Origin: an uncultured Candidatus Saccharibacteria bacterium | GTDB lineage: Bacteria; Patescibacteriota; Saccharimonadia; Saccharimonadales; Saccharimonadaceae | Length of the DNA: 64,000 nucleotides | Direction of reading: 5' to 3' | NCBI GenBank assembly: GCA_964608555.1 | Contig: CAZSPU010000002.1 | Location: 1,395 to 65,394 of the forward strand | The notes under the pieces: generated by a model | What the model was told of the DNA's origin: nothing | The model's database searches: none | Seen by the model: only the letters and a program-made list of their open reading frames with translations | Program-made: the position numbers and the translations under genes | In this document: one piece after another, positions 392-30,731 of the stretch | Layout: the number at the start of each line of letters is the position of its first letter | Numbering within the stretch: position 1 is the stretch's first letter

Positions 392-599
392 TCCATTACC
401 ATTATCCTTACCGTACTAGGCAACGGAGAGGAATGCCGTACCAAGCATTTTCATACCAACTAGGATTTACTAAGTTAGGGTTAGAACCAAAATGGTAAAC
501 AAAACCAGGACGCGAACCCGTACTAGACGACCAATCGCCAGTCCACCACCCAGCACTGACAATGGCACCATTTGCATGTATGACATCACTACGCACGAA
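392..599 (-). repeat. Variable cassette copy 1 (FVRS...PLRCLVR* family)
   Basis: Reverse complement starts TTCGTGCGTAGTG (587-599) and ends CCTCTCCGTTGCCTAGTACGGTAAGGATAATGGTAATGGA. 64 open codons: FVRSDVIHANG...WSSS...GIPLRCLVR*. Confidence 0.9.
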
Positions 600-603
600 A
601 TAA

Positions 604-815
604 CATTACCATTATCTCTATCGTACTGGGCAGCGGAGAGGCATACCACACCAGTGGGGATGACTGTAAGAGCTATATACTGAGCCCATTCTATAGTTGA
701 TATCATAAACTTTGTTGGATGCGTTCTGAGGGTCAGACCGATTAGACCATAGAGACCCGTTAATTCCTACCCATTCAGCGAAGCCTGACGAGCGTATACT
801 TTCACTACGCACGAA
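604..815 (-). repeat. Variable cassette copy 2 (tandem with copy 1)
   Basis: 5' arm at 803-815. Slightly degenerate 3' arm CCTCTCCGCTGCCCAGTACGATAGAGATAATGGTAATG. 66 open codons: FVRSESIR...GMPLRCPVR*. Confidence 0.9.
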
Positions 816-869
816 ATAACTCAAGAAATTATTACGCAGCGAGAAATTTATGCTACAATGAGAGGAGTT

Positions 870-2180
870 ATGGGAAAGTTGGAAGATATAGTTAGTTTAT
901 GCAAGCGCCGGGGTTTTATTTTTCCGGGGTCAGATGTTTATGGCGGAATGGCGGGGACTTGGGATTTTGGTCCGCTCGGGGTTGCGCTGAAGAACAAATT
1001 ATTGCAAATTTGGTGGAATTATTGGGTGGATAAGCGTGACGATATGTACGGAGTGGACGCGGCGATTCTGATGAATCCAAAGACGTGGGTGGCCTCTGGG
1101 CACGTGGCGACGTTTGCAGATCCTTTGATTGAGTGCAAGGAGTGTCACGGTCGTTTTCGTGCTGATAAGCTGGTTGACGGCGCGAGCGAAAGTATCACAA
1201 CAGAGGAATTTCTGCAGGCTGATGTCAAATGTCCGACTTGCGGCAAGAAAAATTGGGGCGAGATTAAGAAGTTTAATATGATGTTCCAGACGCACGTTGG
1301 CGCCGTGACGGATGATACCAGTATCGCTTATTTGCGTCCAGAGACAGCGCAGGGGATTTTTACAAATTTCCGCAACGTGGTCGATACGATTTATCCTGAT
1401 ATTCCCTTTGGGATTGCCCAACAAGGCAAGGCTTTTCGCAACGAGATTTCGCCGCGCGATTTTATCCTGCGCGATCGCGAATGTAGCCAGATGGAAATTG
1501 AATATTTCGTGCATCCTGGCAACTGGCAGGAGAGTTTTGAGAAGTTATTGCAGGAGTATCATGTTTTCCTAGAAGAAGTTTTGGCCTTGCCAAAAGATTT
1601 AATTCATGAATATGAAGTTCCGGCCGAGGATCGGGCACATTATTCGCAGCGCACGGTCGATATTGAATTTGATTATCCGAATGGTCGCGAAGAGCTCATG
1701 GGTATTGCTTATCGTACAGATTTTGACCTAAAAAATATCGAGCGCGAGTCGGGCAAAAGTATGCTCTACCGAGATAAAAATACCGGCGAGGCGTTTGTGC
1801 CGCATGTAATCGAGCCTAGTATCGGCGTAGAGCGCTTGATCCTGGCGATTTTGAGTGCGGCCTATAGCGAAGAAGAAGGTCGAGTTGTCTTAAAGTTGCC
1901 AGAGAAGTTGGCGCCATATCAATTCTGCGTGAGCCCACTCCTGAAAAATAAGCCGGAGTTAGTAGCAAAAGCCAAAGAAGTTTATCAGCTTCTGAAGGAT
2001 AAATATACTTTTGTGACCTGGGATGATTCGGGCAATATCGGCAAACGCTACAAAAAACAAGATGAAATCGGTACGCCGAAATGTGTCGTGGTTGATTTTG
2101 ATAGTCTAGAAGACAATTCCGTAACCGTGCGCGATCGCGATACTACCGAGCAGGTTCGAGTAGAAATCAGTGAACTGTAA
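870..2180 (+). CDS. glyQS: Glycine--tRNA ligase (homodimeric GlyQS type)
   Basis: N-terminus 'IVSLCKRRGFIFPGS', motifs LRPETAQGIF, GKAFRNEI, PHVIEPSIGVERL, and a C-terminal anticodon domain. Start chosen at ATG 870 because the ATG at 858 overlaps a TGCTACAAT -10 box. Confidence 0.95.
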   Translation: MGKLEDIVSLCKRRGFIFPGSDVYGGMAGTWDFGPLGVALKNKLLQIWWNYWVDKRDDMYGVDAAILMNPKTWVASGHVATFADPLIECKECHGRFRADKLVDGASESITTEEFLQADVKCPTCGKKNWGEIKKFNMMFQTHVGAVTDDTSIAYLRPETAQGIFTNFRNVVDTIYPDIPFGIAQQGKAFRNEISPRDFILRDRECSQMEIEYFVHPGNWQESFEKLLQEYHVFLEEVLALPKDLIHEYEVPAEDRAHYSQRTVDIEFDYPNGREELMGIAYRTDFDLKNIERESGKSMLYRDKNTGEAFVPHVIEPSIGVERLILAILSAAYSEEEGRVVLKLPEKLAPYQFCVSPLLKNKPELVAKAKEVYQLLKDKYTFVTWDDSGNIGKRYKKQDEIGTPKCVVVDFDSLEDNSVTVRDRDTTEQVRVEISEL

Positions 2181-2451
2181 TCCTAAGTCTGGAAGAGCTG
2201 GCCTTGGGAGAATGCGGCTACAGTTTATTGCGGTTAGTTATGACTTGAGAGTACGGTAGGTTAGTGCGGCTGATTAGTGCTTGGCTTGCGATAAGCCCAC
2301 GAAAAGGCTGATGCTGGTGATGCAGCCCCCTATCTTCTTATATTAGCACAGATTACTTGTTTTGTCAAGTTTGAGGCCGCTCATGAATCATTTTGTGGGT
2401 AGACTTTACGAGTTGTTGCACGAGGGGAACTTTTAAGCTATAATGGGAATC

Positions 2452-4257
2452 ATGCCTGAAGTCGATGCAAAAGAAGTAAAACAGCCTAGTACCGTCCGGC
2501 GGACGCTGCATTATTATTGGCGCGAACTTGTCAAGTATAAGTGGTATGCGCTGGGGTGTTTGATTTTGACGCCGGTTGTGGTTTTTATTCGGGGCGTGTT
2601 GGCGCCGATGATTTTCGCGGATTTGATTGAGAAGGCCTCGCTTGATTTGCCGATTGAGGAATTAGTAGCCACGGCCCTAACGGAAGTTATTATCTTTGTA
2701 TTATTATATATTCTGAATAAGGTCGTCTTCGAAGAACTGCGCTTATACTTGTGCTGGAAAATGGAAATGAAGGCGATGTATGATCTGGCGCTGCTCTGTT
2801 TTGATACGGTCTCGGAGCAATCGATGCAGTTTCACAACGATCGGTTCTCCGGTTCCCTGGTGACGCAGTCGAATAAATTCGTCGGGGCGTTTGAGCGAAT
2901 GTGCGATACGATAATATGGAACATCTTGCCTACGATTTCGTTTGTGATTATGATTGTGGTGATTCTGTTGCCGCAAGTGCCTTGGTTTGCGGTAGGTCTG
3001 GTAGTTTTGACGATAATTTATGCGGTTATTTGTTCGCTCTCCTTCCGCAAAATTGCCGATCTTAATGAAGAGTGGTCGGCGGCTGAGTCTAAACAAACCG
3101 GCCAACTATCTGATTCGATTTCGAATATTATTTCGGTAAAATCTTATGCGCGCGAAGATCATGAGCGCAAGCGTTATGCGCAATTCTCGAAAAAATCTTT
3201 TGATGCCGGGATTAAGTCAATGCGCGCCACGATCAGTCGCGATGTCCTATTTAATTGCGTCCAGATTGGAATTACTTGCTTGATTTTGGCGTTTCTGCTT
3301 TATGGGCGGACTTGGCTAGGAATTTCGGTGGCGACGCTTGTCCTCATTGTCAATTATGCGCAAACCGTGCAGGGTGAGCTTTGGGAAATCAATGCTATCC
3401 TCAAAAATCTCAATCGTATGTTTGGCGATGCGCGAGAAATGACGTTGATTTTGGATATGAAAGATGATGTGGTTGATGCTCCAGATGCTCAGCCGCTGGT
3501 GATGGGACGGGCGGAGGTAGATTTTAACCACGTCTCCTTCCAGCATGTTGACGCAAAGAATGCAATTTTTAGGGATTTTAATCTGAGAATTAAGGACGGT
3601 GAGCGCGTCGGTTTGGTGGGCGTATCCGGATCGGGGAAGACTACTTTGACAAAATTACTGCTGCGGTTTGCCGATGTGAATGAAGGTGCGATTACGATTT
3701 CTGGCCAAGATATCCGGAAAATCACCCAACAGTCTTTACGCGAGAATATTGCTTATGTGCCACAAGAAACTTCCCTGTTTCATCGCTCGATCGCCGAGAA
3801 TATCGCCTATGGTAAGCCCGATGCGACACCTGAAGAAATCAAACGTGCGGCGATGCTTGCAAATGCCGATGAATTTATTATGGAATTACCAGATGGATAT
3901 GATACTCTGGTAGGTGAGCGAGGCGTCAAATTGTCGGGCGGTCAGCGTCAGCGTGTAGCAATTGCCCGTGCGATTTTGAAGGATGCGCCCATTCTGGTCC
4001 TAGACGAAGCGACTTCGGCACTAGACTCCGAGTCGGAAGCTCTGATTCAGGAAGCTTTGGAGAAATTGATGGCGAATCGCACTAGTATTGTGATTGCGCA
4101 CCGACTTTCTACGGTGGCGAGCATGGATCGTATTATCGTGATGCAAGATGGGCAGATTGCCGAACAAGGTTCACACCAAAAATTGCTCGAGCGCCCCGAA
4201 GGTGTTTATCACCATCTTTGGGATCGCCAAAGTGGCGCTTTTATGGAAGATCAGTAG
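2452..4257 (+). CDS. ABC transporter fused permease/ATP-binding protein (MdlB/MsbA-like exporter)
   Basis: N-terminal multi-TM domain, Walker A GVSGSGKT, signature LSGGQRQR, Walker B ILVLDEATSALD, H-loop IAHRLST. ORF track starts at 2443; 2452 fits the spacing from the -10 box. Confidence 0.9.
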   Translation: MPEVDAKEVKQPSTVRRTLHYYWRELVKYKWYALGCLILTPVVVFIRGVLAPMIFADLIEKASLDLPIEELVATALTEVIIFVLLYILNKVVFEELRLYLCWKMEMKAMYDLALLCFDTVSEQSMQFHNDRFSGSLVTQSNKFVGAFERMCDTIIWNILPTISFVIMIVVILLPQVPWFAVGLVVLTIIYAVICSLSFRKIADLNEEWSAAESKQTGQLSDSISNIISVKSYAREDHERKRYAQFSKKSFDAGIKSMRATISRDVLFNCVQIGITCLILAFLLYGRTWLGISVATLVLIVNYAQTVQGELWEINAILKNLNRMFGDAREMTLILDMKDDVVDAPDAQPLVMGRAEVDFNHVSFQHVDAKNAIFRDFNLRIKDGERVGLVGVSGSGKTTLTKLLLRFADVNEGAITISGQDIRKITQQSLRENIAYVPQETSLFHRSIAENIAYGKPDATPEEIKRAAMLANADEFIMELPDGYDTLVGERGVKLSGGQRQRVAIARAILKDAPILVLDEATSALDSESEALIQEALEKLMANRTSIVIAHRLSTVASMDRIIVMQDGQIAEQGSHQKLLERPEGVYHHLWDRQSGAFMEDQ

Positions 4258-4308
4258 CTTCAGCGTTCGGAGGACGATATTTTGAAAAGCTGTCGGTAGA
4301 TTTGAGAC

Positions 4309-4596
4309 CAACCGCATATATTATGCATACATTGCCAGGAAGCAATATGGGTACGTTCAGTACAAAAACCATGCCGGCCACACCTGTTATGCATACGTTA
4401 CTCGGAAGAGAGTACTATAGAAAGCCGCGGTAGATTTAGGGCCGTCAGCTTCTGCTATGTGAACGTCGCCAGAATGAAGTTCAGTGGACGAACACCCACA
4501 CAAAACAGTCGTCAGCTTCTGTTATGTGAACGTCGCCAAAATGGTACTTTTACCGAAAGGCTTGTAAAGCCAGCTCCTATTATGCGCATAGTACTC
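4309..4596. repeat. Degenerate ~29-bp direct repeat series, period 58-68 bp (5 units)
   Basis: CGTCAGCTTCTG(C/T)TATGTGAACGTCGCCA at 4443-4471 and 4510-4538 (28/29 identical). Weaker copies share the TTATG core at 4321, 4387 and 4580. Confidence 0.55.
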
Positions 4597-4625
4597 GAGT
4601 GACAGCCTTACAGAAGATTGATAAA

Positions 4626-4671
4626 CTTAGTAGGCTTAGTAGACCTGGTAGACTTGGTAGACCTGGTAGAC
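4626..4671. repeat. 9-bp tandem microsatellite (~5 copies)
   Basis: cttagtag-g-cttagtag-a-cctggtag-a-cttggtag-a-cctggtag-ac. Confidence 0.7.
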
Positions 4672-4700
4672 AAAACCGCCCTATTTCTGAGAGCGGTTTT
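4672..4700. terminator. Bidirectional intrinsic terminator downstream of ppa
   Basis: AAAACCGC...GCGGTTTT inverted repeat just past the ppa stop. Confidence 0.65.
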
Positions 4701-4718
4701 GATTGTAATAGGAAGTCT

Positions 4719-5249
4719 TTACTTATTGTTCCAGCGATCGATGGAATCTTTAATGACCTGTTTGGCTTCGTCAAGACCGGCAAATTCTTTGACTTCGGTG
4801 GTGTTAGGCTTTTTGAGGTCTTTGTAATGATTGAAATGGAATTTAATTTGCTCGATGAGACGTTTTGGTAGGTCTTCGAGCTTTTCGATAGCATCACCAT
4901 TGTCGCGATTGTCGGCTACGACGGCAATGATTTTGTCATCGACTTCACCGTCATCGACAAATTTCATTACGCCAAGCACGCGCGCCTTGGTATAAATACC
5001 CGTAGTCAAAGGCTGATCGGTAATCAACAATACGTCGAGCTCGTCGCCGTCTTCGTCTAGAGTCTGCGGAATAAAGCCATAGTTGCAAGGCTTGACGAAG
5101 GCCATTGGCTCAATGCGATCGAGCATAAAGCATGCGTTTTCGCGGTCCCATTCGATTTTTTGGTTGGAACCAGTCGGAATCTCGACCACGACATTAATCT
5201 CGCCGTTCTCATAATCGCCAGGATTCAAGATTTTATTAAAATCTGCCAT
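4719..5249 (-). CDS. ppa: Family I inorganic pyrophosphatase
   Basis: VVEIP, NYGFIPQTLDEDGDELDVL (DxDxLD motif), DDGEVDDKIIAV, FNHYKDL. Confidence 0.95.
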   Translation of the reverse strand: MADFNKILNPGDYENGEINVVVEIPTGSNQKIEWDRENACFMLDRIEPMAFVKPCNYGFIPQTLDEDGDELDVLLITDQPLTTGIYTKARVLGVMKFVDDGEVDDKIIAVVADNRDNGDAIEKLEDLPKRLIEQIKFHFNHYKDLKKPNTTEVKEFAGLDEAKQVIKDSIDRWNNK

Positions 5250-5285
5250 AAAAACTCCTTATATTATAAGGATATTATAGCATAG

Positions 5286-5315
5286 AAAAACCCCGCCGGT
5301 AAAATTGGCGGGGTT
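5286..5315 (-). terminator. Intrinsic terminator of the 5383-5997 orphan gene
   Basis: CCCCGCC/GGCGGGG stem with an A-run (U-tract on the minus strand). Confidence 0.7.
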
Positions 5316-5382
5316 GATCTCTGTAAACTGATTCATTCTGAGGCAGTACTCCGAAAAATGAGATCTAAGCGACGGCTCAAGA

Positions 5383-5997
5383 CTATTCAATGAGTTTCTC
5401 GGCTGATTGCTCGGTGGCGCCGCTCTGGGAAAGCTCTGCTTCCAGCTCTGTAATGCACTCTTCCTCCTGGCGGATGATTTTCATTAACTCACCGATCTTA
5501 CATTGAGCACCTCGAATTCGAGAACGCGCGTATCTGATCTGTGCGCGCAATTCTTCTGCTCGCGCTTCTTCAGGAGTGAGCTTTTCCCCAGGAACTTGTG
5601 TCAGCAAATTGGCTACAAAAAAGTGAAAAGTGCAGCATACAAATATAGCTATCAAGTTAGACGCAAAATAAGCATCTTCCCGTGTCGCAGTCTTAATTAT
5701 AATGGCGATCGTAGCAATAATCTCGATAGTTATCATGATAAATATTGCGCGGCGTATTCGCGGACGATAGCGTTCACGCCGTGGTTCGCGCCAAAAATCT
5801 TTTACCCAATTTTCGGCCTTTACCGGGAAGATACCCAGTCCTATTGCCGCTATAAAATAGGGCATATCACCTAGATGCTCGCCTGCAATCAAAAGCCCCC
5901 ACGGGAGAATCGTGGCGCTCACGATTGCATACGCAAACACCAGAATCACCACACCGTTCTTGAAACCTTCGCTAAAGTTCTTCTTCATTTTTAACAT
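5383..5997 (-). CDS. Hypothetical membrane protein (about 4 TM segments plus C-terminal coiled coil)
   Basis: Hydrophobic segments, heptad-like EEARAEELRAQIRYARSRIR tail, own TTGACA-17-TACAAT promoter (6050-6078), AGGAGG SD and terminator. Confidence 0.7.
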   Translation of the reverse strand: MLKMKKNFSEGFKNGVVILVFAYAIVSATILPWGLLIAGEHLGDMPYFIAAIGLGIFPVKAENWVKDFWREPRRERYRPRIRRAIFIMITIEIIATIAIIIKTATREDAYFASNLIAIFVCCTFHFFVANLLTQVPGEKLTPEEARAEELRAQIRYARSRIRGAQCKIGELMKIIRQEEECITELEAELSQSGATEQSAEKLIE

Positions 5998-6049
5998 GCT
6001 TACCCCTCCTTAGGCATAAAATTTGGGTAGAAGATGGCCCCATACTTTG

Positions 6050-6115
6050 ATTGTATCACAGATTTTAATTTTTGTCAATGCTTATATTGACTTTTTACGC
6101 AAACTGTGCTATAAT
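6050..6115. promoter_or_regulatory. Back-to-back consensus sigma70-type promoters
   Basis: Minus strand TTGACA (6073-6078)-17-TACAAT (6050-6055); plus strand TTGACT (6087-6092)-17-TATAAT (6110-6115). Confidence 0.75.
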
Positions 6116-6163
6116 GGAAGGATATAGGGTCTTTGGACCTAGAATATAGGGAGGTGTTCTTTA

Positions 6164-6847
6164 ATGCAACTGTTAGGTTTAGCAAACTTTTTGGCCAAAT
6201 ATTCCTGTCCAAAATGGAATAAGTTACGAGTTTTGCGTAGAATTTGCCGGATGGGTTACCATGGCTTGGGGCAGTTTTGGATCTGGTGGCAACGGTGGAG
6301 TCGTCACATAAACCCTTCGGACGAACGACGTAATATTCGAGAAATCGAATCGACGCTTAGTGAATTGAACTGCGAAGTCCAAAATACCTACCCCTGGCCG
6401 TATCGCGATCTGCGCTTTGCAGACTGGAAGGAAGATGGCAGTCCTGAGGGTTATAATCTAATTTCCGATCCAGCTGGATTCGTGATTAGGCGCAGCACCA
6501 GCTATTGCGCGTGGAAAATCTACGAAGCGACTGGGCGCTGGCCGAAGAATCGCGCTCAGGGCTGGCAGAGATTCGACGCAAGGGACTGGGAAAGATTCCT
6601 GACGATGAACGATTTTCGCCGTGTCTCCGCAGACGAGCTGAAATCGAGCTCCCTCCGTTGCTGCATCGGAATTTTGCCGGAGCAAGGCGAGTTTGGGCAG
6701 GTGGTCTGGTTAGAGAAAATTTTCCCGACATTTCACGAACGAATGCGACAGGTCAGTTATCAAGTATCGACCTACGAAAATTTTCAGTACAAGAATTACC
6801 GGCTGACAAATGAAGATGCTCATGATGTAGTCTGGATGGGAAAATGA
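6164..6847 (+). CDS. CHAP-domain-like protein with substituted catalytic residues
   Basis: SDPAGFVIRRSTSYCAWK and FGQVVWLE...VSTY align by eye with CHAP motifs DPxG...RxCxSYxAWK and GHVAxVE...VSxY; GGGAGG SD. Confidence 0.6.
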   Translation: MQLLGLANFLAKYSCPKWNKLRVLRRICRMGYHGLGQFWIWWQRWSRHINPSDERRNIREIESTLSELNCEVQNTYPWPYRDLRFADWKEDGSPEGYNLISDPAGFVIRRSTSYCAWKIYEATGRWPKNRAQGWQRFDARDWERFLTMNDFRRVSADELKSSSLRCCIGILPEQGEFGQVVWLEKIFPTFHERMRQVSYQVSTYENFQYKNYRLTNEDAHDVVWMGK

Positions 6848-6939
6848 CAGGAGCCCCTGAGCCATTAACTGGCAGCCACAACCTAACTAAAGCTGGTCGT
6901 GAGGCCAGCTTTTTTATTAGTTCCATAAAAATGAGGTCT

Positions 6940-7767
6940 TCACACAGAAGACCTCTCGGCTTTGAGTCGTGCGACAACCTCGTTATACTCCGCAAAAGTC
7001 GGCGGGAGTTGTTGGAGGTCAACATAGAGCCGCCCCATATATTTAGAATAGGTAGCGAGAGCCTGAAAATGCAGCGAATCTGCGTAGGATTTACGAACTA
7101 TCGATAATTCGCGGCGTAGAAAAGTACATCGTGCATGCGTGCTCTTAGGGCCACAGTCCAGGTTGATGCCGGACAAAACATATCGAGCCTCTTGGTCGCA
7201 TCCGTCAAAGATTAACTCAAAGAGAGTATTGCGTAGCGTCCCCAGTTCACGCGTTAAGGCACTACAAGTATTCCAAGCTGCTCCCTGTGCAGTGCGATAT
7301 TTTCTGACGGCGGAATAATAGCGCTGTTCGTCTACGGGGCTAGAAAGAGCAGATAGATTAAACCCGAGAACTCGGCGAGGCTGCTCAAAATCAGCTAGAT
7401 GGACATAGTCGTACAGGAAAGCACCGCTTAGAGCGTTGACCTCTTGCATGAGACTAAGAATGAGAACCATGTCGTCAGCCAGATTAAGTCGACGAACGAC
7501 GTCAAGGCTGTCAAGATGGTAGCTACCCAGAATACGAGAATAGCACCATTCTTGCCAACGATTGCGCATCCGCAGAATATCATCTGTCAAAACGTCGATC
7601 CAGACTCTATCTTGAAATTGCGGGTGGTCTAGGAGTGCGTTATCCTTCGGAAACTGAAACGCCCTACTAACGAATACGAGATTGCTCAAGTACTCAAGAC
7701 TAGCCGCCGAATGACGATCGGCTTCCGTCTGCACAGGCTCTTTGTGTATGGATAAAAAAGTGCTCAT
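6940..7767 (-). CDS. Hypothetical protein
   Basis: 275-aa ORF with AGGAGG SD and TTGACA-17-TACAAT promoter (7810-7838); no recognised motif. Confidence 0.65.
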   Translation of the reverse strand: MSTFLSIHKEPVQTEADRHSAASLEYLSNLVFVSRAFQFPKDNALLDHPQFQDRVWIDVLTDDILRMRNRWQEWCYSRILGSYHLDSLDVVRRLNLADDMVLILSLMQEVNALSGAFLYDYVHLADFEQPRRVLGFNLSALSSPVDEQRYYSAVRKYRTAQGAAWNTCSALTRELGTLRNTLFELIFDGCDQEARYVLSGINLDCGPKSTHARCTFLRRELSIVRKSYADSLHFQALATYSKYMGRLYVDLQQLPPTFAEYNEVVARLKAERSSV

Positions 7768-9199: not shown

Positions 9200-9419
9200 T
9201 TCGTGCGTAGTGGAACTGTAAGTTATGGCGATTTTATCTTCGGAGCTGGCATTTATGGTTATGTTTGGACTTTGCATACCCTCTTGGATTCCGAATTTCA
9301 TGATACCTACTATTTAGGTTTCGATCCAAGTCAAACTTTTCTGCACGGTAACAGCTTTAAAAGGCGTTATCATGGCCATTCTCTCCGCTGCTTAGTACGG
9401 TAAGGATAATGGTAATGGA
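9200..9419 (+). repeat. Variable cassette copy 3
   Basis: TTCGTGCGTAGTG...TCTCTCCGCTGCTTAGTACGGTAAGGATAATGGTAATGGA; 68 open codons FVRSGTVSYG...HGHSLRCLVR*. Confidence 0.9.
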
Positions 9420-9456
9420 TTGATACGCCTCACCAAAAGATTAAAGATTCTTGCTT

Positions 9457-9533: not shown

Positions 9534-9744
9534 TTCGTGCGTAGTGCAGATATTTTTGTGGAAGGTATGACTGGAGATACTATAATTGGCTATTTTTGGA
9601 CTGCTAATGCTGAATTTAGCTCCGAGTTTAATAATTCTGATAGAGTGTTTTGGAATCAGAATACAAGTTATGTAAGTGCTACATGGCAACGTTACGTTGG
9701 TTATCCTCTCCGCTGCCTAGTACGGTAGGGATAATGGTAATGGA
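9534..9744 (+). repeat. Variable cassette copy 4
   Basis: Both arms match consensus; 65 open codons FVRSADIF...[10 protein letters not shown]. Confidence 0.9.
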
Positions 9745-9843: not shown

Positions 9844-9950
9844 GGTAGGTATACTTTTTGGAGATGATTCGGAGTTACGACGAGAAGTAGCGCACAATAC
9901 CCGTAACGACGGGCTATTGTGACGCGCATCTCCAAAAAGCTATACCTACC
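9844..9950. repeat. 107-bp fold-back element with 23-bp terminal inverted repeats and an internal hairpin
   Basis: GGTAGGTATACTTTTTGGAGATG (9844-9866) pairs with CATCTCCAAAAAG-C-TATACCTACC (9927-9950). Inner stem CACAATA-CCCGT/ACGGG-C-TATTGTG. Confidence 0.75.
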
Positions 9951-9955
9951 GCCTT

Positions 9956-9987
9956 CTGCCTAGTACGGTAGGGATAATGGTAATGAA
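9956..9987 (+). repeat. Cassette 3' arm only (5'-truncated copy 5)
   Basis: CTGCCTAGTACGGTAGGGATAATGGTAATGAA, with no 5' arm or core upstream; abuts the recO stop codon. Confidence 0.85.
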
Positions 9988-16763: not shown

Positions 16764-16907
16764 GATGATATAATATTCCCGTTATGTCAAATTGAAAATG
16801 ACTACAAGCTTCACTGGATATATAATCTTCTGCCGCTTCGCGTCAGAAATGCCTGCTCATTCTCGGAAAAGAGAACAAGATTCTCTTTTCTCTCAGATAT
16901 TTGCCAC

Positions 16908-17118
16908 TTCGTGCGTAGTGGCGAAGTTTGGTATGCTGCTTATGTAGGGTGGAATAACTGTGCAAATATTTGGTCGTCAAGTGCTGAAAATGGCAACGCT
17001 TTCTTAAATAGTTTCTTTTTAAGTTTTGATGAGTTAAATATTAAGCCGTCCAACGTTCTCGTTCGTCTTGATGGTCGTCCTCTCCGCTGCCTAGTACGGT
17101 AGGGATAATGGTAATGGA
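16908..17118 (+). repeat. Variable cassette copy 6
   Basis: Both arms match consensus; 65 open codons FVRSGEVW...DGRPLRCLVR*; preceded by a perfect 10-bp hairpin (16866-16890). Confidence 0.9.
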
Positions 17119-23596: not shown

Positions 23597-23687
23597 GAAC
23601 ACACATGTAGATATTTCTGGCACAAAACACCAGAAGAACGCCCCGAAAGGCAAGGGGCGTTCTGGAAAGTAATTATATTTGCGTGTA

Positions 23688-24338
23688 TTACGCGGCTGCA
23701 GCTGTATCGGCACCGGCGTCGGATGCTGATTCAGTGGAACCGTCAGCCTCGGACTCGGCTTCGCGAGCAGCAGCTTCGGCGGCTGAGTCGTAAACGTTCG
23801 CAACGACGGTATTTTGCGCCATTTCTTTGTCTGCAACTTCGACACGATCCGGCATCTGCAAATCTGCTACAGTTAATTTGTCGTCAACATCGGCAAGATT
23901 AGCAGCATTGACGATGATCTCTTGCGGCAAATCGGACGGACGAGCCTTGATTTCGATATCTTCCATAACCTGCAAGATAACCAAATGCTTTTTAGCAGCT
24001 TCGGACTGATCAAAATCAACTACACGAATCGGAGTGACTGCTTCTACGACTTCGTCGGCCGAAATTGCCTGAAACTCAACGTTGATAATACGGCGACTCA
24101 CTGGGTCGATTGCGATATTTTTTACTAAGGCGAGCTGCGTCTGGCCTTGAACGGTCAGCTCAACTGGAGAATGATAACCAACTTCATTCAATACTTTTTC
24201 GGTAAGATTGTAGCTGGAAGTAGTCATAATTGGATTTTCAAGACCATAAACCACTGACGGAATCATTCCTTCAGCACGCAAAGCTTTGAGTTTTTTACCA
24301 GTAGCGACGCGCTTTTCCAGCGATAATTGATTCGACAT
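23688..24338 (-). CDS. rplY: 50S ribosomal protein L25 / general stress protein Ctc
   Basis: KKLKALRAEGMIPSVVYG, NVEFQAI, IEIKARPSDLPQEIIVN, LTVADL; acidic Ala-rich tail; AAGGAG SD. Confidence 0.9.
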   Translation of the reverse strand: MSNQLSLEKRVATGKKLKALRAEGMIPSVVYGLENPIMTTSSYNLTEKVLNEVGYHSPVELTVQGQTQLALVKNIAIDPVSRRIINVEFQAISADEVVEAVTPIRVVDFDQSEAAKKHLVILQVMEDIEIKARPSDLPQEIIVNAANLADVDDKLTVADLQMPDRVEVADKEMAQNTVVANVYDSAAEAAAREAESEADGSTESASDAGADTAAAA

Positions 24339-24446
24339 AAAAAATAACTCCTTTGTTTGTACTATTTTACTACATTTTTCTTTCTCTAGCAAGCTTGGTT
24401 TTGATAGCGTAAAATCGTGCAAAATAAATATTTTACTGCTACCGTC

Positions 24447-24660
24447 TTCGTGCGTAGTGATGTAGTAAATCCAGGCGGCTTAATTTATAATGTTGGATTA
24501 TGGAGCAACTTATGGTCGTCGCGCGCCAATACTTGGGCTGGACTTCAACACGCCCTCATTTTATCATTTAATACTTTAAATGTTGACTCCTCTGCCAATG
24601 GCGAACGCCATCACGGCCGTCCTCTCCACTGTCTAGTACGGTAGGGATAATGATAATGGA
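24447..24660 (+). repeat. Variable cassette copy 7 (first of tandem triplet)
   Basis: 5' arm perfect; 3' arm CCTCTCCACTGTCTAGTACGGTAGGGATAATGATAATGGA; 66 open codons. Confidence 0.9.
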
Positions 24661-24667
24661 TATATCC

Positions 24668-24887
24668 TTCGTGCGTAGTGGGCTTGTTCATGTCAACCAT
24701 TTCATTCATTGGCCTGGATCTAATGGTTTTTATTGGACATCTCGTGCTGACGATTCTGGATTTCAGCGAAGTTTTAATTTTACGTTTGCTATATCAGGTG
24801 TAGACCCATTCAATAGTTATGGTAATGGCGACCGTTCCTTCGGCTTTCCTCTTCGCTGCCTAGTACGGTAGGGATAATGGTAATGAA
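24668..24887 (+). repeat. Variable cassette copy 8 (second of triplet)
   Basis: 5' arm perfect; 68 open codons FVRSGLVH...FGFPLRCLVR*. Confidence 0.9.
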
Positions 24888-24907
24888 TGATGCAGAACAA
24901 ACAACTC

Positions 24908-25124
24908 TTCGTGCGTAGTGATGTTGTTAATGCGAGCGGGCAAGTTAGTTCATACGCGGGCAACAATGGCTTAGTGTGGTCGTCGCGCGCTGGAACTAGT
25001 AGTGCCTTTCAAACTAGTTTTGATTTACCTTTTAACGCTACGGATGCTTATCCATCTAACAGTGGTGATCGTTGGCATGGCATGTCTCTCCGCTGCCTAG
25101 TACGGTAGGGATAATGGTAATGGA
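24908..25124 (+). repeat. Variable cassette copy 9 (third of triplet)
   Basis: 5' arm perfect; 67 open codons FVRSDVVN...HGMSLRCLVR*. Confidence 0.9.
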
Positions 25125-25155
25125 TAAGGTTAAATGTGCAGGCAAAAATATAAAC

Positions 25156-25189
25156 AAAAGTCCTAAGCGGAAATTGCCTAGGACTTTTT
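25156..25189. terminator. Bidirectional terminator between the cassette array and the surface-protein gene
   Basis: AAAAGTCCTA...TAGGACTTTT inverted repeat. Confidence 0.65.
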
Positions 25190-25206
25190 GTAAACAGAAC
25201 GTGCGT

Positions 25207-26142
25207 TTAGCCTTGTTTGCGTTTAAGCACGCGGCTCACAATCCAGAACACTGCGACAGCGACAAAGACGATAACTATAACCAGGAACCAGATTGGACAG
25301 AGGAAGACGGTTTTTTCGACTGTAGATGTTTCGTCAAAAATTGTAATGGTCTGCTTGACTTTGAAGATGCCGAGCTGCGGCGCATCGTCCCAAGAAACTT
25401 CATTGTAGCGTTCGGTTTCAGGGAAAATTACCTGCTGTTGTTTTTCTTCGGGAGTAGTATAGACGTTTTTACCACCGAAGAATGAGGAAACTTCCAGCTT
25501 ATAAGTAGCGGCTGTATAAACGTTGCCTGTATTCTTAACGGTAGATGTGGCAGTGACTGGCGGCTCAAACAGGAATCCAGGAATCTTATTATCAAGGATT
25601 TCTGCGGTTTCGCGAGTCTCACCAGCAATGTTGGAAAAGATAACGAACGCGACTTGCTGAATAGTTTTCACGCCTGTATCAGTGGGCGATTCATCGTCCG
25701 TCATTGATACTGTGATAGCTGCGTTTTGGTTACCGGCAGGGGCGTCATTCGGAACCTTGATATGGTATTTCACTTCCACCTGCGCGCCAGGTTCAACCGT
25801 ACCGGTACCACCCTCAACTGTGACCCACTCTTGCATGATGCTGTATTTATTTTCCTCCGAAAAGCTTGGCGTGTAATCACCACTCTTAACCGAGTATGGT
25901 TTGATATCCGTTTCAAAAGCATAAGCCTTCTGTCCTGAATTTTGCACCTTGAATGAGCCATGATATGTGCGCCCTGGCTGCAATTCTCCGACGTTGGCTT
26001 GCGTTGGCGAAATTTGTAAACGGTAGTCTGGAACATCTGCAGCAAGAGCTATCCCTGAATAATTATTTACGTTAAATATCATCGATAGACATGCAACGAG
26101 CGTAATCACCAGTGCACGCTTCAAAGTTTTTATCTTATTCAT
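25207..26142 (-). CDS. Cell-surface protein (signal peptide, Ig-like/DUF916-like domains, C-terminal TM anchor)
   Basis: LQISPT..., GSFKVQN, VKNTGNVY, C-terminal hydrophobic helix plus KRKQG tail; resembles WxL-interacting proteins. Confidence 0.55.
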   Translation of the reverse strand: MNKIKTLKRALVITLVACLSMIFNVNNYSGIALAADVPDYRLQISPTQANVGELQPGRTYHGSFKVQNSGQKAYAFETDIKPYSVKSGDYTPSFSEENKYSIMQEWVTVEGGTGTVEPGAQVEVKYHIKVPNDAPAGNQNAAITVSMTDDESPTDTGVKTIQQVAFVIFSNIAGETRETAEILDNKIPGFLFEPPVTATSTVKNTGNVYTAATYKLEVSSFFGGKNVYTTPEEKQQQVIFPETERYNEVSWDDAPQLGIFKVKQTITIFDETSTVEKTVFLCPIWFLVIVIVFVAVAVFWIVSRVLKRKQG

Positions 26143-26214
26143 TAACCTCCTTATTTATGTCTATTATATATGATTGCGATGGTTTATCAATAAGAAAAGT
26201 AAAAGTCACACTCC

Positions 26215-26240
26215 AAAACCGCCTCAAACGAGGCGGTTTT
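26215..26240. terminator. Intrinsic terminator
   Basis: Perfect 11-bp stem AAAACCGCCTC/GAGGCGGTTTT. Confidence 0.75.
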
Positions 26241-26274
26241 AAAACTATTCTATTAAAAGCTTACAGAATTAAGT

Positions 26275-26901
26275 CTAGCCTTCGGTTGGAGTAGAAGGAA
26301 GTTCTACTACATCTGTAGTGGCAGCGGTTGTAGCGGTGAGCAAAACAGTAGTCGAGTATTCGTCGGCTGCCTGAGATGCACTGACGCTAGCACCAAACTC
26401 AATAGTAATGGTATCGCCAGCATCAGCTGGTTTAGCAGTAGTCTTAGTTAATTCTGCTTCAGCAGTCAAGCCTTGATACGCGTCAGCAGTTCCACCTTCA
26501 GCGGCTGCTAGGCGATAGCCCCACTTAGATTCACCAACCTTTGGAACACCAGCGGCGATAGTTTCGGTATTACTAGCAGTCTTACCGACCATGCCAGTCT
26601 TAGTGCCGTCTTTAGGAGAAATCTTTACGACGTAGCCGCCAGCGTTGTTAGTCTTGACGTTAATCGTACCGGTACCAGAAACAATTGGACCGTTGTTGAT
26701 AACATTACCGAGGCTAACGGTTTTATTAGCTTGAGTAGTTTCAAGAGAGATGAAATCATTAACATTAAGATTAACAGTCATTTCATCTTGATTATAATAA
26801 TGTTGACCTTCAGTAGCAGCATACGAACTCAATGGTAAAGCAGCGACGCCAAGACCAGCGACTACGCCCAAAATGGCCAGGGCTTTTGTTGATTTAGACA
26901 T
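26275..26901 (-). CDS. Secreted Thr/Ala-rich beta-strand surface protein (WxL-like)
   Basis: Signal peptide, 'INVKTNNAGGY', 'SKWGYRL', 'DEYSTTVLLTAT'; paired with the DUF916-like gene. Confidence 0.55.
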   Translation of the reverse strand: MSKSTKALAILGVVAGLGVAALPLSSYAATEGQHYYNQDEMTVNLNVNDFISLETTQANKTVSLGNVINNGPIVSGTGTINVKTNNAGGYVVKISPKDGTKTGMVGKTASNTETIAAGVPKVGESKWGYRLAAAEGGTADAYQGLTAEAELTKTTAKPADAGDTITIEFGASVSASQAADEYSTTVLLTATTAATTDVVELPSTPTEG

Positions 26902-27096
26902 AAAAGTTTTCTCCTTTTTATGTATTTTGGTTTGATATTTTTATGTGATCTTTTCCTGCTTTTAGTATACCGCCTTAAAAAATAAAACGCAAGCGGAATT
27001 TTCGGAAAGTTTCGGGCGTTTTCCACACAAAGTTTTCGGTTACTATAGGTAATGATATGGTATAATTGATGGGAAAGACGTGGACAGAGACCTTTA

Positions 27097-27330
27097 ATGG
27101 AAATTTTATTCAGTGCTACGGAACAGCGTTTTTCATCGGAGTATTATCATGCCGATTTCGACCATGACGGAAATCGATTTTTCCAAATTGCAGATTTGAT
27201 GACTTATGTTGCGCGTCTTGTATTCAAGCAACGCGAAGGCATAGCTCACAGTAGTAGCGATCAAATATTCTTCACCAAGGATAATCTCAGACTGCTAACT
27301 AAAGATATTTTCCTAAAAGCCGCCCCTTAA
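27097..27330 (+). pseudogene. Probable gene fragment (DUF3800-like C-terminus)
   Basis: 77 aa with 'FFQIADLMTY', resembling the DUF3800 QxAD motif; too short for a full domain. Confidence 0.35.
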
Positions 27331-27432
27331 AGAGACGGCTTGTCTAGGATTATCCCTAGTACTGGTCAGAGCCTGTATAGAAATAAATCTATACTCAGCC
27401 CCTAGGTAGCAACATTAAGTTGCCCATAATTC
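27315..27432 (-). ncRNA. Structured non-coding RNA candidate (~115 nt)
   Basis: TTGATT-17-TATAAT promoter upstream, three hairpins (GCAAC/GTTGC, GTATAGA/TCTATAC, CTAGG/CCTAG), GC-rich terminator with U-tract; only a 10-codon ORF. Confidence 0.4.
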
Positions 27433-27579
27433 CATTATACCATACTTTCATAAAATAATCAATAGTTTTTGTCAATTTTCAACTGTTTTTCTGTTTTGTT
27501 GTAAATTTTACAACAATGAGTACTATTAGAAGATGTTTAACTGTACACAAGATTACTAAGTATGATCCTAAGGCATATC

Positions 27580-30462
27580 TCACAACCCCAAAACCTGTTT
27601 CAAGTATTTGCCGGTTGGGGTATTGGAGTCCTTGGCGAGTTGCTCGGGCGTGCCCTGTGCCATGACGCGACCGCCTTTTTGACCGCCCTCTGGGCCCATA
27701 TCAATCACCCAGTCAGCGCTCTTAATGACGTGTAAATTATGCTCAATAATAATCATCGAATTGCCACCGTCGACGAGACGGCCGAGAATTTCGAGCAACC
27801 TTCTGACGTCGTCAGTATGCAAGCCGGTGGTCGGCTCATCGAGAATATAGAGAGTCTTGCCGGTACTGCGGCGCGCGAGCTCGGTGGCCAATTTGATGCG
27901 TTGCGCTTCGCCGCCAGAGAAGGTAGTAGCCGGCTGGCCAAGTTTAACATAACCGAGTCCAACTTCTTGGATAGTCTTGAGCTTGGGCGCGATCGAAGGA
28001 ATGCTAGCAAAAAACTCTACCGCTTCGTCGATCGTCATATTGAGAACTTCGGAAATATCCTTACCCTTATATTTCACCTCGAGAGCTTCGTGATTATAGC
28101 GTTTGCCGTGACAAGTCGGACAGGTCACATAAACATCTGGCAAGAAGTGCATTTCGATTTTGTTGACGCCGTCGCCTTGACAAGCTTCGCAGCGGCCGCC
28201 TTTGATATTAAAACTAAAACGCCCAGCCTTATACCCGCGTAGCTCGGCTTCGGGCTGCTTCGCAAAAAGTTCGCGGATTTGATTAAAAACGCCGGTATAA
28301 GTGGCCGCATTACTACGAGGCGTGCGCCCGATCGGTGACTGATCGATGACGATGGCCTTATCGAGAAATTCGATGCCATCAATCCGCTCGTGCAGACCAG
28401 CGACTGTCTGAGCCCGATGCAAACGTGCCAGTAATTCATTGGCCAGAATCTCATTCACCAAAGTCGACTTACCGCTACCAGAAACGCCAGAAACTACCGT
28501 CATGACACCCAGCGGGAAATGCACATCGATATTTTTAAGATTATTTTCGCGCGCACCCACAACTACTAATTCTTGGTCTTTTTTGGGCTTGCGGCGTTTC
28601 GCCGGCACCGGAATCGTCTTGCGACCAGAAAGATACTGCCCGGTAATAGAATCAGGATCGTTTGCTACTTCTTCGGGCGTACCTGCCGCCACTAAACGCC
28701 CACCGTTTTTACCGGCGCCTGGCCCGATATCCACGATAAAATCAGCCTCACACATCGTATCTTCGTCGTGCTCAACCACCAGCACGGTATTTTTGAGATC
28801 GCGCAAATGCTTGAGCGTAGCAATTAACTTATCGTTATCGCGTTGATGCAAACCGATTGACGGCTCATCCAAGACATAGAGTACACCTTGCAAGCCCGAA
28901 CCAATCTGCGTCGCCAGCCGAATTCGCTGCGCTTCGCCGCCCGACAAAGTATTAGCGGCGCGCCCCAGCTCGAGATAACCAAGCCCTACATCTTGCATGA
29001 ATTTGACGCGCTCACGAATTTCTTTGATAATTGGCTCGGCAATCAGAGCTTCGTTGTCGTTAAACTGGAGATCTTGATTGAGCACATCCAGAGTGGCATC
29101 GACGTCGAGATTACACATATCCATGATATTGAAACCGTGCACCGTCACCGCCAAGACCGCCGGCTGCAAACGTGCGCCGTGACAAGTCTGACACTCATGC
29201 ACCCGCATGAAACGCTCGATATCTTTGCGCACAAAATCGGAATCTGTCTCTTTATGGCGGCGCTCAAGCGTCGGAATGACACCTTCGTAAGTCGATTGAT
29301 AAGTCGCGCCATTACCCCATTTGCCATGTCCGCCAACCTTGACTTCGTACTTCTCTTTGCCGGTACCGTATAATAATATCTGCAGATTTTCTTCGGAAAG
29401 CTGCCCGATCGGCGTATGCACCGAAAATCCATGCCGCGTCGCGACAGCGTCGAGCCGTTTCAGCCACCAGGATTCTTGAGTAACGCGATTAAACGGCCGG
29501 ATGCCGCCTTCGGCAATGGTCAGATTGGGGTTCAAAATTAGATCTGGATCAATTTCCAGGCGCGTGCCTAGCCCTGTACAAGTCGGACAGGCTCCCTGCG
29601 GCGCATTAAAACTAAACAGCCGCGGCTCTAACTCTGGAATCAGCTCGTCGGGATGCAATTCACAGGCATAACGCTGAGAAAAAGTAAAAATTTCGGTCTG
29701 GTTTTCGCCGATATTCTTCTCGCCAACTGAGGTCGAATTGTCATTAATTCTCAATAATTTAATAATGCCCTGCCCCAGTTCCAAGGCTTGTTCGATCGAT
29801 CCGGAAATGCGACTCAATAAATCTGGCGACAATACAAACCGATCCACAACAATCTCGATGTCGTGACGATCATTTTTGTTGAGGTCGGGAAATTCATCGA
29901 GCGCATAGACAATTCCATCGATGCGGACACGCGAAAAGCCTTTTGCTTGATATTGCTCGGAAACGTGCTGAAAACTTCCCTTTTTCTGGGAGACAATCGG
30001 CGCCAGCAGCATTAATTTGCTTCCGAGTGGCAATTTCATTACTTCGTTAATAATGTCTTCAACACTGCGACGCTGCACTTCACGATGACAAATCGGACAA
30101 TGCGGAACGCCAATGCGCGCAAACAGTAAGCGCAAATAATCATAAACTTCGGTCACAGTCGCAACGGTCGAACGCGGATTGCGACTAGTCGACTTCTGAT
30201 CAATTGAAATCGCCGGGCTCAAACCAGTAATACTATCGACGTCTGGCTTATCCATCACTCCCAAAAACATGCGCGCGTAACTTGACAAACTCTCGACATA
30301 GCGGCGCTGCCCTTCGGCGTAAATCGTATCGAAAGCCAAGCTCGACTTACCCGAGCCCGATAAACCAGTAATCACAACCAGTTTATCTCGCGGAATATCG
30401 ACGCTAAGATCTTTGAGATTATGTTGCCGCGCACCGCGGATTCGGAGAAAATTGTCATTCAT
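27580..30462 (-). CDS. uvrA: Excinuclease ABC subunit A
   Basis: [38 protein letters not shown], two ABC cassettes ([18 protein letters not shown]), Zn fingers. Confidence 0.98.
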
Positions 30463-30502
30463 TGCCGTATATTATACAGGTTTATGTTCGTTTAATCAAC
30501 CC

Positions 30503-30731
30503 TTCGTGCGTAGTGATAGGACTGAGAATATCGGTTTTCTTTATTCTGGACACACAGCTCACCTTTGGAGCAGTTATGCTAATTATGGTACACATTTTCA
30601 GGACAGTTTCAGTCTTAGCTTCAATCTTACTATCAGCACTTCAGACGTCTACCCCTCCAACAACTTCTACAACTACCGTTACTTCGGTTATCCTCTCCGC
30701 TGCCTAGTACGGTGGGGATAATGGTAATGGA
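30503..30731 (+). repeat. Variable cassette copy 10 (stop codon TAG changed to TGG)
   Basis: 5' arm perfect; 3' arm CCTCTCCGCTGCCTAGTACGGTGGGGATAATGGTAATGGA; FVRSDRTE...[13 protein letters not shown]. Confidence 0.9.

What the first reader, a model, noticed from the sequence alone, without database searches (positions are those of the whole stretch)
392..30731. Dispersed library of silent hypervariable C-terminal-domain cassettes with fixed DNA arms (candidate new diversification system)
SEEN: nine complete ~210-bp intergenic units (392-599, 604-815, 9200-9419, 9534-9744, 16908-17118, 24447-24660, 24668-24887, 24908-25124, 30503-30731) and one 3'-only remnant (9956-9987). All nine start with exactly TTCGTGCGTAGTG and end in a ~40-bp arm, CCTCTCCGCTGCCTAGTACGGTAGGGATAATGGTAATGGA, that runs 16 nt past the stop codon. 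Flanking DNA is unrelated and the edges are sharp. Lengths from the first codon to the stop position are 192-213 nt, always a multiple of 3 and never containing an internal stop. The peptides share the pattern FVRS-x-W[ST]-x-[RAH]xxG-x-[PS]LRCLVR*. The arms are conserved at synonymous positions, whereas internal conserved codons vary (GGC/GGT, TCG/ACT/AGC). None has an upstream gene body. KNOWN: this pattern resembles the C-terminal ligand-binding part of FISUMP/C-type-lectin-fold domains, the fold diversified by DGRs, which are common in CPR. Silent-cassette gene conversion is the mechanism of vlsE, pilS/pilE and msp2 variation. INFERENCE: the units are a stored repertoire of interchangeable binding tips, swapped via the two arms into an expression locus outside this window, for example for host-attachment or immune-evasion switching in an episymbiont. 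I know of no described system with this architecture.
Basis: partly seen in the sequence, partly recalled or inferred. Interest (0 to 1): 0.95.

Follow-up and report, generated by a model that had tools for sequence, protein, structure and literature searches.

The report
Gene-less DGR variable-region cassette library
The nine repeats belong to about 274 start-less copies of the hypervariable tip of a surface-lectin gene, making up 6% of a tiny gut Saccharibacteria genome; a mutagenic reverse transcriptase elsewhere in the genome has rewritten some of them, and they also swap sequence with each other.

Summary
The nine window units belong to 274 units genome-wide (about 6% of a 0.99-Mb genome, 130 loci). 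266 have lengths divisible by three and 255 have no internal stop. Both arms are fixed even at synonymous sites (pS 0.06), while interiors are saturated (pS 0.70).

The units are homologous to the C-terminal third of FISUMP (PF09603) domains, and none has a gene body, start codon or ribosome-binding site. The arms, however, match the ends of the template/variable-repeat homology of a diversity-generating retroelement (DGR). The genome holds an intact DGR-type reverse transcriptase (contig C6) and an Asn-rich template repeat (C44). In 11 of 94 same-length units, tracts of at least 50 nt differ from that template only at its adenines. The same test with C, G or T gives 0.

Exact twins and mosaic pairs with unrelated flanks show copying between arms. 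In a congener, the variable region of a full-length gene is the twin of a gene-less cassette. Three congeners carry dozens of such cassettes with their own species-specific arms, often at the same positions, which implies concerted evolution.

Whether the cassettes are a used reserve or a fossil record is unresolved. This scan has noted the same phenomenon in other Saccharibacteria genomes. I found no paper describing it.

The parts
392..599 (-). Cassette 1 (192 nt from F codon to stop, plus 16-nt tail). It has an exact 152-nt interior twin on contig C1, with unrelated flanks.
602..815 (-). Cassette 2 (198 nt), head-to-tail with cassette 1. Its 3' arm is the most degenerate in the window.
9200..9419 (+). 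Cassette 3 (204 nt). Its interior is unique.
9534..9744 (+). Cassette 4 (195 nt), with a perfect 40-nt 3' arm.
9950..9987 (+). 3'-arm-only remnant (the last ~32 nt of the arm), following a fold-back element.
16908..17118 (+). Cassette 5 (195 nt), preceded by the tail of the 81-86-nt hairpin-plus-T spacer family.
24447..24660 (+). Cassette 6 (198 nt), first of a tandem triplet. It shares an exact 48-nt interior block with a cassette on contig C4 (mosaic).
24668..24887 (+). Cassette 7 (204 nt).
24908..25124 (+). Cassette 8 (201 nt).
30503..30731 (+). Cassette 9 (213 nt). The canonical stop TAG is mutated to TGG, and the unit lies antisense between two minus-strand genes.

Best explanation
The units are gene-less copies of the variable repeat (VR) of a diversity-generating retroelement, each with the VR's 3' target-site tail. 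The VR encodes the last ~65 residues of a FISUMP/C-type-lectin-like surface-protein domain.

Shown:
- The genome encodes an intact DGR-clade reverse transcriptase (C6:1246-2574).
- It has one Asn-rich template repeat (C44:412-603). This shares the 5' arm from its third base and the 3' arm up to CTAGT.
- Some cassettes carry tracts that differ from this template only at its adenines, with different substitutions in each cassette. The retroelement has therefore written into gene-less cassettes.
- Cassettes are copied whole or in blocks between loci, with breakpoints at the arms.
- They have no start codon, Shine-Dalgarno site or gene body.
- Related species have the same kind of library at partly the same positions but with their own arms. 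The arms are therefore homogenised within each genome.

Inferred: the cassettes form a silent reserve. It is diversified by retrohoming and shuffled by arm-guided recombination. Its members are exchanged with the VR of the few full-length surface-protein genes. This would add scaffold and loop-length variants that adenine mutagenesis alone cannot reach. The direction and frequency of that exchange are unknown.
For: - Reverse transcriptase: 45-49% identical to congeners' DGR RTs over ~400 aa. Pfam RVT_1 scores above cut-off. The IGNLTSQ and YVDD motifs are present.
- Template: Asn-rich, with the arm-sharing described above. Its flanks are conserved in a congener.
- Relatives show classical TR/VR pairs whose homology starts at the same F codon. 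In L014, 22 of 24 mismatches lie at adenines.
- Adenine-only tracts: 11 of 94 units against 0 for C, G or T as the privileged base. The substitutions differ between units.
- Twins with unrelated flanks and mosaic pairs.
- No translation signals: 9 of 274 units have an SD-like motif before the arm GTG, against 38% of long ORFs and 5% of random positions.
- Codon-level constraint: pN/pS 0.59 with saturated pS 0.70 in interiors, against pS 0.06 in arms.
- Congeners: species-specific arms. A true orphan in G014 has 20 adenine-site and 2 internal non-adenine differences from its TR. In G010 the VR of a full-length gene equals an orphan, with 1 mismatch in ~195 nt.
- 11 of 15 flanking genes in G014 and G016 have a G000 cassette on the same side.
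Against: - No G000 cassette differs from the template only at adenines over its whole length. The best has about 11% non-adenine mismatches and the median is 37%. Only 2 units have strictly 3'-anchored adenine-only tracts of 50 nt or more.
- Interior synonymous saturation cannot come from one template, and only one FISUMP-type template was found.
- The VR of the full-length gene in this genome is unassembled, so exchange with an expressed gene is shown only in a congener and without direction.
- No Avd-type accessory gene was found.
- No read data could be examined, so current activity is unknown.
Confidence: 0.7

Rival explanations
1. Fossil record or selfish by-product. The cassettes are non-functional copies of past variable regions, or of the DGR target site. 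They spread by duplication or recombination and are passively overwritten by the retroelement. They are never used as donors for an expressed gene.
For: - Copy number varies enormously between congeners, from 1 to 88 matches, against 274 units here.
- Cassettes avoid divergent promoter regions and favour gene 3' ends, as tolerated insertions would.
- They have no expression signals.
- Most cassettes are far from the present template.
Against: - Scaffold codons keep positions 1 and 2 while position 3 is saturated. This needs protein-level selection somewhere in their history.
- 255 of 274 cassettes keep an open frame, and 266 of 274 have a length divisible by three.
- The arms are homogenised within each species, although positions are shared between species. 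This implies continuing exchange.
- A full-length gene shares its VR with a cassette in G010.
Confidence: 0.25
2. Pure silent-cassette gene conversion (pilS/vls-like) with no role for a retroelement.
For: Twins and mosaics bounded by the arms. Body-less, promoter-less copies. An expressed-gene/cassette twin in G010.
Against: The arms equal the DGR TR/VR homology ends. An RT and a TR are present. Adenine-only tracts are specific to the template. An orphan in G014 has the near-complete DGR signature.
Confidence: 0.04
3. Each unit is an independently translated mini-protein of ~65 aa, starting at the GTG inside the 5' arm or at an upstream ATG.
For: The frames are open. A GTG lies in the arm. In some tandem junctions an ATG in the preceding arm is in frame.
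Against: SD-like motifs occur before the GTG in only 3% of units, at or below background, and only 66 of 274 have any upstream in-frame ATG. Junction lengths show no phase preference. The peptide is only the last third of a domain. Many units lie antisense to their neighbours.
Confidence: 0.03
4. A MITE-like non-autonomous transposon family that happens to carry a coding fragment.
For: 130 dispersed loci, sharp edges, and copy number that differs between species.
Against: There are no target-site duplications (observed equals control) and no terminal inverted repeats. Interiors are hypervariable while the ends are fixed. The ends coincide with DGR homology boundaries.
Confidence: 0.03

Closest known systems
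Cellular DGRs with C-type-lectin-fold targets and several or remote variable repeats (Treponema denticola TvpA family, PMC4891356; the general DGR scheme in PMC8144416)
   Same: An RT with the DGR motifs, an Asn-rich non-coding template, adenine-specific differences, the VR at the very end of a lectin-like domain, homology running past the stop codon, and one template serving VRs far away in the genome.
   Different: Known remote VRs sit in complete target genes and number up to about a dozen. Here ~274 VRs have no gene, no start and no promoter, make up 6% of the genome, stand in tandem arrays, and mostly differ from the template at non-adenine sites too.
Silent-cassette antigenic variation systems (Neisseria pilS/pilE, Borrelia vls/vlsE, Anaplasma msp2, Mycoplasma genitalium MgPa repeats)
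   Same: Promoter-less partial gene copies kept in frame, conserved flanking segments that bound the transferred tract, mosaic (segmental) sharing between copies, and in M. genitalium a comparable share of a small genome (from my own knowledge).
   Different: Those systems have no reverse transcriptase or template. Their cassettes are usually clustered near one expression site and number 5-50. Switching is demonstrated experimentally for them but not here.
Orphan DGR cassette notes of this scan in other Saccharibacteria genomes (e1-5276126, e1-5200024, e1-5138341 and others)
   Same: The same kind of start-less FISUMP-type VR copies between housekeeping genes, with the RT and template elsewhere.
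   Different: Those are unpublished AI notes with 10 to ~110 copies. This genome has the largest set so far. It also adds the concerted evolution of arms across species and the expressed-gene/cassette twin in a congener.

Membership tests
Diversity-generating retroelement (DGR) | Reverse transcriptase of the DGR clade ([I/L/V]GxxxSQ motif and YxDD) | tested here: met
   The ORF at C6:1246-2574 is intact and has IGNLTSQ and YVDD. It is 45-49% identical to congeners' DGR RTs that lie next to TR/VR pairs. RVT_1 scores 32.6 bits against a cut-off of 29.6. That the motif marks DGR RTs is from my own knowledge.
Diversity-generating retroelement (DGR) | A template repeat whose differences from the variable repeats fall at template adenines | tested here: met
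   Met for parts of cassettes only. 11 of 94 units have tracts of 50-82 nt with 5-11 adenine-site mismatches and no others, while controls with C, G or T give 0. No G000 unit is adenine-only over its full length. A G014 orphan is nearly so, with 20 against 2 internal.
Diversity-generating retroelement (DGR) | Variable repeat lies at the 3' end of a protein-coding target gene | tested here: not met
   None of the 274 units has a gene body. The full-length candidate C41:3-1568(-) runs off its contig before the VR.
Diversity-generating retroelement (DGR) | IMH/IMH* asymmetry and a downstream hairpin at the VR | tested here: inconclusive
   TR and units diverge completely after CTAGT, and the 23-nt unit-specific tail is conserved. 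Only a 4-bp hairpin can be drawn by eye.
Diversity-generating retroelement (DGR) | Accessory protein (Avd or similar) | tested here: inconclusive
   PF05635 was not found in the genome. The same kind of search missed the RT, and the 315-aa ORF upstream of the RT has no Pfam match.
Silent-cassette gene conversion systems (pilS, vls, msp2 type) | Promoter-less partial copies sharing conserved flanks with an expression locus | tested here: inconclusive
   The partial copies are shown. In this genome the end of the expression locus is unassembled. In congener G010, a full-length gene of at least 566 aa has the same arms and an identical VR to an orphan.
Silent-cassette gene conversion systems (pilS, vls, msp2 type) | Segmental (mosaic) transfer between copies | tested here: met
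   29 pairs share exact blocks of 25-146 nt within otherwise divergent interiors, and 33 units have twins of 130 nt or more. A codon-shuffled control gives nothing above 20 nt.
Silent-cassette gene conversion systems (pilS, vls, msp2 type) | Observed switching of the expressed gene within a population | not testable with these tools
Exact-protein and arm look-ups in other collections found nothing.
FISUMP / Fib_succ_major (PF09603), C-type-lectin-like fold | Sequence match to the family profile | tested here: met
   The units alone give no Pfam or NCBIfam hit. A profile of the units finds 1157 representative proteins. In the long ones, PF09603 covers the matched stretch as its C-terminal third (P0100 341-517 against unit 460-520; P0135 530-765 against 716-766).
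FISUMP / Fib_succ_major (PF09603), C-type-lectin-like fold | Predicted fold is C-type-lectin-like | tested here: inconclusive
   AlphaFold2 on a 9-sequence alignment of full-length C-terminal domains gave mean pLDDT 31.6. PDB profile searches found nothing.
MITE / transposon | Terminal inverted repeats and target-site duplications | tested here: not met
   The longest shared flank word averages 3.84 nt against 3.97 nt in the shuffled control. The arms share at most 4 nt in inverted orientation.

The most novel reading that the evidence does not exclude
A two-tier diversification system. A DGR writes adenine-mutagenised cDNA into a genome-wide reserve of hundreds of silent variable-region cassettes. 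Arm-guided recombination then shuffles these and swaps them into the few expressed surface-lectin genes. This combines hypermutation with cassette switching. It also explains why the arms evolve in concert within each species while the interiors stay under protein-level constraint.
Probability: 0.35. Interest if true: 0.9.

Novelty: new variant of a known kind. Interest (0 to 1): 0.72.

Why it matters
DGRs are understood as one template rewriting one or a few complete genes. Here a reduced ~1-Mb epibiont genome spends 6% of its DNA on about 274 gene-less target repeats. The element has written into some of them, and they recombine with each other. If the cassettes feed expressed genes, this is a second bacterial route to combinatorial surface diversity. 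It would join retroelement hypermutation to cassette switching in organisms that depend on attaching to host cells. If the cassettes are fossils, they are a readable archive of past binding-site variants and of template evolution. Either way they break metagenome assemblies, since contigs here often end in units. They are also called as hundreds of short hypothetical proteins in public databases.

Tried and rejected
- Pfam and NCBIfam on the nine peptides gave only chance-level hits. PDB sequence-profile searches found nothing.
- Rfam found nothing in the window or at the TR, RT or body loci.
- The whole-genome search with PF00078 reported no RT. This was a false negative, and tblastn with relatives' RTs found the gene.
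- I looked for an in-frame gene body upstream of every unit and of every orphan 5' arm and found none. An HMM of the units found no copy inside a long ORF.
- I tested whether one template explains all cassettes and rejected it, because non-adenine mismatches have a median of 37%.
I found only one FISUMP-type TR and one paralogous scaffold with an unrelated middle on C40.
- Strictly 3'-anchored adenine-only tracts occur in only 2 units, so the 3'-anchored partial-retrohoming picture is weaker than it first looked.
- Tests for independent translation and for a transposon were both negative.
- AlphaFold2 on a shallow alignment gave an unusable model, so I ran no fold search.
Three exact-protein look-ups and one arm scan of metagenome contigs returned nothing.
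- Literature searches found no description of gene-less VR libraries.


Full report
OBSERVATION. The 13-nt 5' arm occurs nine times in the window, always exactly, against 1.5 expected by chance. The 40-nt 3' arm occurs eight times with at most 3 mismatches, against none expected. The ninth unit has a more degenerate arm. Read from the F codon, every unit gives 63-70 codons without an internal stop. In unit 30503-30731 the canonical TAG has become TGG. The 3'-only remnant near 9950-9987 is real.

The window is C2:1395-65394 of a 988,615-bp, 44-contig assembly rated 95.6% complete. Genome-wide I paired 274 units. Of these, 266 have lengths divisible by three and 255 have no internal stop. The median length is 198 nt, and together they make up 6.0% of the assembly. 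They lie in 130 arrays of 1-7 units on both strands.

Over 255 aligned units the arm codons are almost invariant, whereas conserved interior Gly and Ser use mixed codons. Between random same-length units, pS is 0.061 in the arms and 0.70 in the interior.

WHAT THE UNITS ENCODE. The peptides alone match no Pfam, NCBIfam or PDB entry. A profile of the nine finds 1157 representative proteins. Many are 60-150-aa calls on similar units. Others are long multi-domain proteins. In the long proteins PF09603 (Fib_succ_major) covers the matched stretch as its C-terminal third. The FISUMP guess is thus supported by homology. The fold itself could not be confirmed, because AlphaFold2 gave pLDDT 31.6 on a shallow alignment.

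NO GENE BODIES, NO TRANSLATION SIGNALS.
- The longest in-frame upstream stretch is 166 codons of non-protein-like sequence.
- No orphan 5' arm ends a long ORF.
- An HMM of the units finds no copy inside a long ORF.
- An SD-like motif precedes the arm's GTG in 9 of 274 units. The rate is 38% for long ORFs and 5% for random positions.
- Only 66 units have any upstream in-frame ATG.
- Tandem junction lengths show no phase preference.
- There are no target-site duplications or terminal inverted repeats.

THE LINK TO A DGR. The unit profile matches 23 of 24 congeneric species, with 1 to 88 matches each, and 1 of 16 other genera of the order. RT relatives are named gut Candidatus Saccharibacteria.

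In low-copy congeners the match is a classical DGR. A gene of about 395 aa or more ends in the unit-like segment. An Asn-rich non-coding copy lies beside it, with an RT next to it. At DNA level, 22 of 24 TR/VR mismatches in L014 are at template adenines. The homology begins exactly at the F codon where the G000 arm begins, and it runs past the stop.

The family search for PF00078 had reported no RT in G000. tblastn with the relatives' RTs nevertheless found an intact 443-codon ORF at C6:1246-2574, 45-49% identical to them. It scores above the RVT_1 cut-off. It also carries IGNLTSQ and YVDD.

An Asn-rich element at C44:412-603 shares the 5' arm from its third base and the 3' arm up to CTAGT, then diverges. 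Its flanks are conserved in congener G010. A paralogous scaffold with an unrelated middle lies on C40. The majority consensus of the cassettes reproduces this template's protein sequence.

HAS THE DGR WRITTEN INTO THE CASSETTES? No G000 cassette differs from the template only at adenines over its full length. The best has about 11% non-adenine mismatches and the median is 37%.

Within the 94 units of template length, however, 11 have tracts of 50-82 nt, all in the 3' half, with 5-11 mismatches at template adenines and none elsewhere. The same scan with C, G or T as the privileged base gives none. The replacing bases differ from unit to unit, so these are separate mutagenic events. Only two units have such tracts strictly anchored at the 3' arm.

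In congener G014, a true orphan with a 68-codon frame and an in-frame stop four codons upstream differs from its species' template at 20 adenine sites. Only 2 internal non-adenine sites differ. The apparently perfect VR beside that species' RT runs into a contig end, so it may belong to a full gene. Gene-less cassettes are therefore real DGR targets.

COPYING BETWEEN CASSETTES. Interior nearest-neighbour similarity is bimodal. Most units have no close relative, but 33 have a twin of 130 nt or more and about 40 share exact blocks of 25-130 nt. A codon-shuffled control gives nothing above 20 nt.

For twins, identity starts at the first base of the 5' arm and ends in the 3' tail, and the flanks are unrelated. 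In one case two adjacent units were copied together. Window cassette 392-599 has such a twin on C1. Intermediate pairs are mosaics sharing the 5' or the 3' block. Third-position conservation declines smoothly inward from the 3' arm and drops sharply after the 5' arm. Transfer tracts anchored in the arms would produce this pattern.

THE EXPRESSED GENE. C41:3-1568(-) encodes a 522-aa protein with a signal-peptide-like N-terminus. It aligns to the body of relatives' targets and runs off its contig about 50 codons before the VR. The first 55 nt of C41 and C6 are identical. A second copy of that segment therefore lies beside the RT locus, and the shared continuation is unassembled. C11:33858-35612 is a weak FISUMP-like paralogue without arms.

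In congener G010, a gene with at least 500 in-frame codons upstream of its VR carries the species' arms. Its VR has 1 mismatch in about 195 nt to an orphan on another contig. The identity is bounded by the arms and the flanks are unrelated. This is direct evidence of exchange between an expressed gene and a cassette. The direction is unknown.

ACROSS SPECIES. G010, G014 and G016 hold 46-70 matches each at E of 1e-5 or better, nearly all in short frames on many contigs. Each species has its own arms, and each species' template shares the arms up to CTAG. After that comes a motif conserved in all four species.

Of 15 curated flanking genes in the G014 and G016 loci that have a G000 orthologue, 11 have a G000 cassette on the same side. 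My rough estimate of the background is 13-20%. For G010 the count is 1 of 8 (antisense ORFs and the RT locus removed by hand). Arrays thus appear older than these species, while arms are uniform within each genome. That is concerted evolution, and it implies continuing exchange.

SELECTION. Scaffold codons such as Gly17, Trp23, Arg54 and Gly57 keep positions 1 and 2 in 82-97% of units, while position 3 is near random. For codons without adenine in the template, pN is 0.415 and pS is 0.70. One template plus adenine mutagenesis cannot produce this. Either the sequences have been selected as protein, or earlier templates had other codons. I found no second FISUMP-type template.

INTERPRETATION. 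With about 85% confidence, the units are DGR variable-repeat cassettes without genes that are or were retrohoming targets and that recombine at their arms. The idea that they serve as a reserve for expressed genes is an inference. It rests on the G010 twin, the open frames, the codon pattern and the homogenised arms. I put it at about 35-40%. The fossil or by-product reading is at about 25%.

The arms are too short for ordinary RecA-dependent exchange at the 5' side (13 nt; the length requirement is from my own knowledge). The copying mechanism is therefore open.

LITERATURE AND EARLIER NOTES. Searches found DGRs with several remote complete target genes (PMC4891356) and the general scheme (PMC8144416). 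They found no description of gene-less VR libraries. This scan has recorded the same phenomenon in other Saccharibacteria genomes. Those are unchecked AI notes. I reached the DGR reading before consulting them. I tested one of their leads, that there might be many templates, with a negative result here.

LIMITS. The genome is a fragmented metagenome assembly. Contigs often end in units, so counts are lower bounds and some twins could be assembly duplicates, although their flanks differ.

Noticed in passing
G000:C40:~1110-1561 (-), outside the window: A paralogue of the template scaffold. Its upstream (~175 nt, 78%) and downstream (~80 nt, 77%) flanks match those of the C44 template repeat. The ~200-nt middle is unrelated and is neither Asn-rich nor open. 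It could be a second template for another target family, or a decayed one.
   Followed up: partly
window 16878-16907; G000-wide, e.g. C13:23114, C9:24944: The spacers between and before cassettes are themselves repeat families: 20-22 nt, 37-39 nt, an 81-86-nt element with a hairpin plus T run ending ...TTTGCCAY, and a 141-nt element with long inverted repeats. The arrays are therefore modular, built of units plus typed spacers.
   Followed up: partly
G000:C1:73041-73077, C6:15395-15431, C6:21302-21338, C13:34753-34808: Cassettes often stand head-to-head with their 5' arms 11-30 nt apart, forming a large palindrome. The same arrangement recurs in G014 and G010 loci (L069, L087, L079, L086).
   Followed up: no
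L023 (G000:C6:1-4500): The whole-genome family search with PF00078 found no candidate in G000. The intact RT gene nevertheless scores above the Pfam cut-off when scanned directly. Negative results of that first-look search should be treated with care.
   Followed up: yes
L026:859-2613 (+) = G000:C11:33858-35612: A 585-aa protein with a weak FISUMP match ends in ...VVRCLVQSQ without the cassette arms. Two cassettes follow it directly. It may be a former target gene that lost its DGR-competent end.
   Followed up: no
L017 (G014:C40) and G014:C39: Congener G014 carries two ~560-aa RTs that match RVT_1 at E~1e-44, far stronger than the DGR RTs. They are probably group II intron proteins. None was found in G000.
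   Followed up: no
3' tails of cassettes in L008-L089 (G010, G014, G016): In the three congeners the unit-specific tail after the stop ends in a strong Shine-Dalgarno-like AGGAGG or GGGAGG. The G000 tail has only GGGAT. Whether this is a relic of the ribosome-binding site of the gene downstream of the original target, or part of the retrohoming signal, is open.
   Followed up: no
I did not study it.
   Followed up: no
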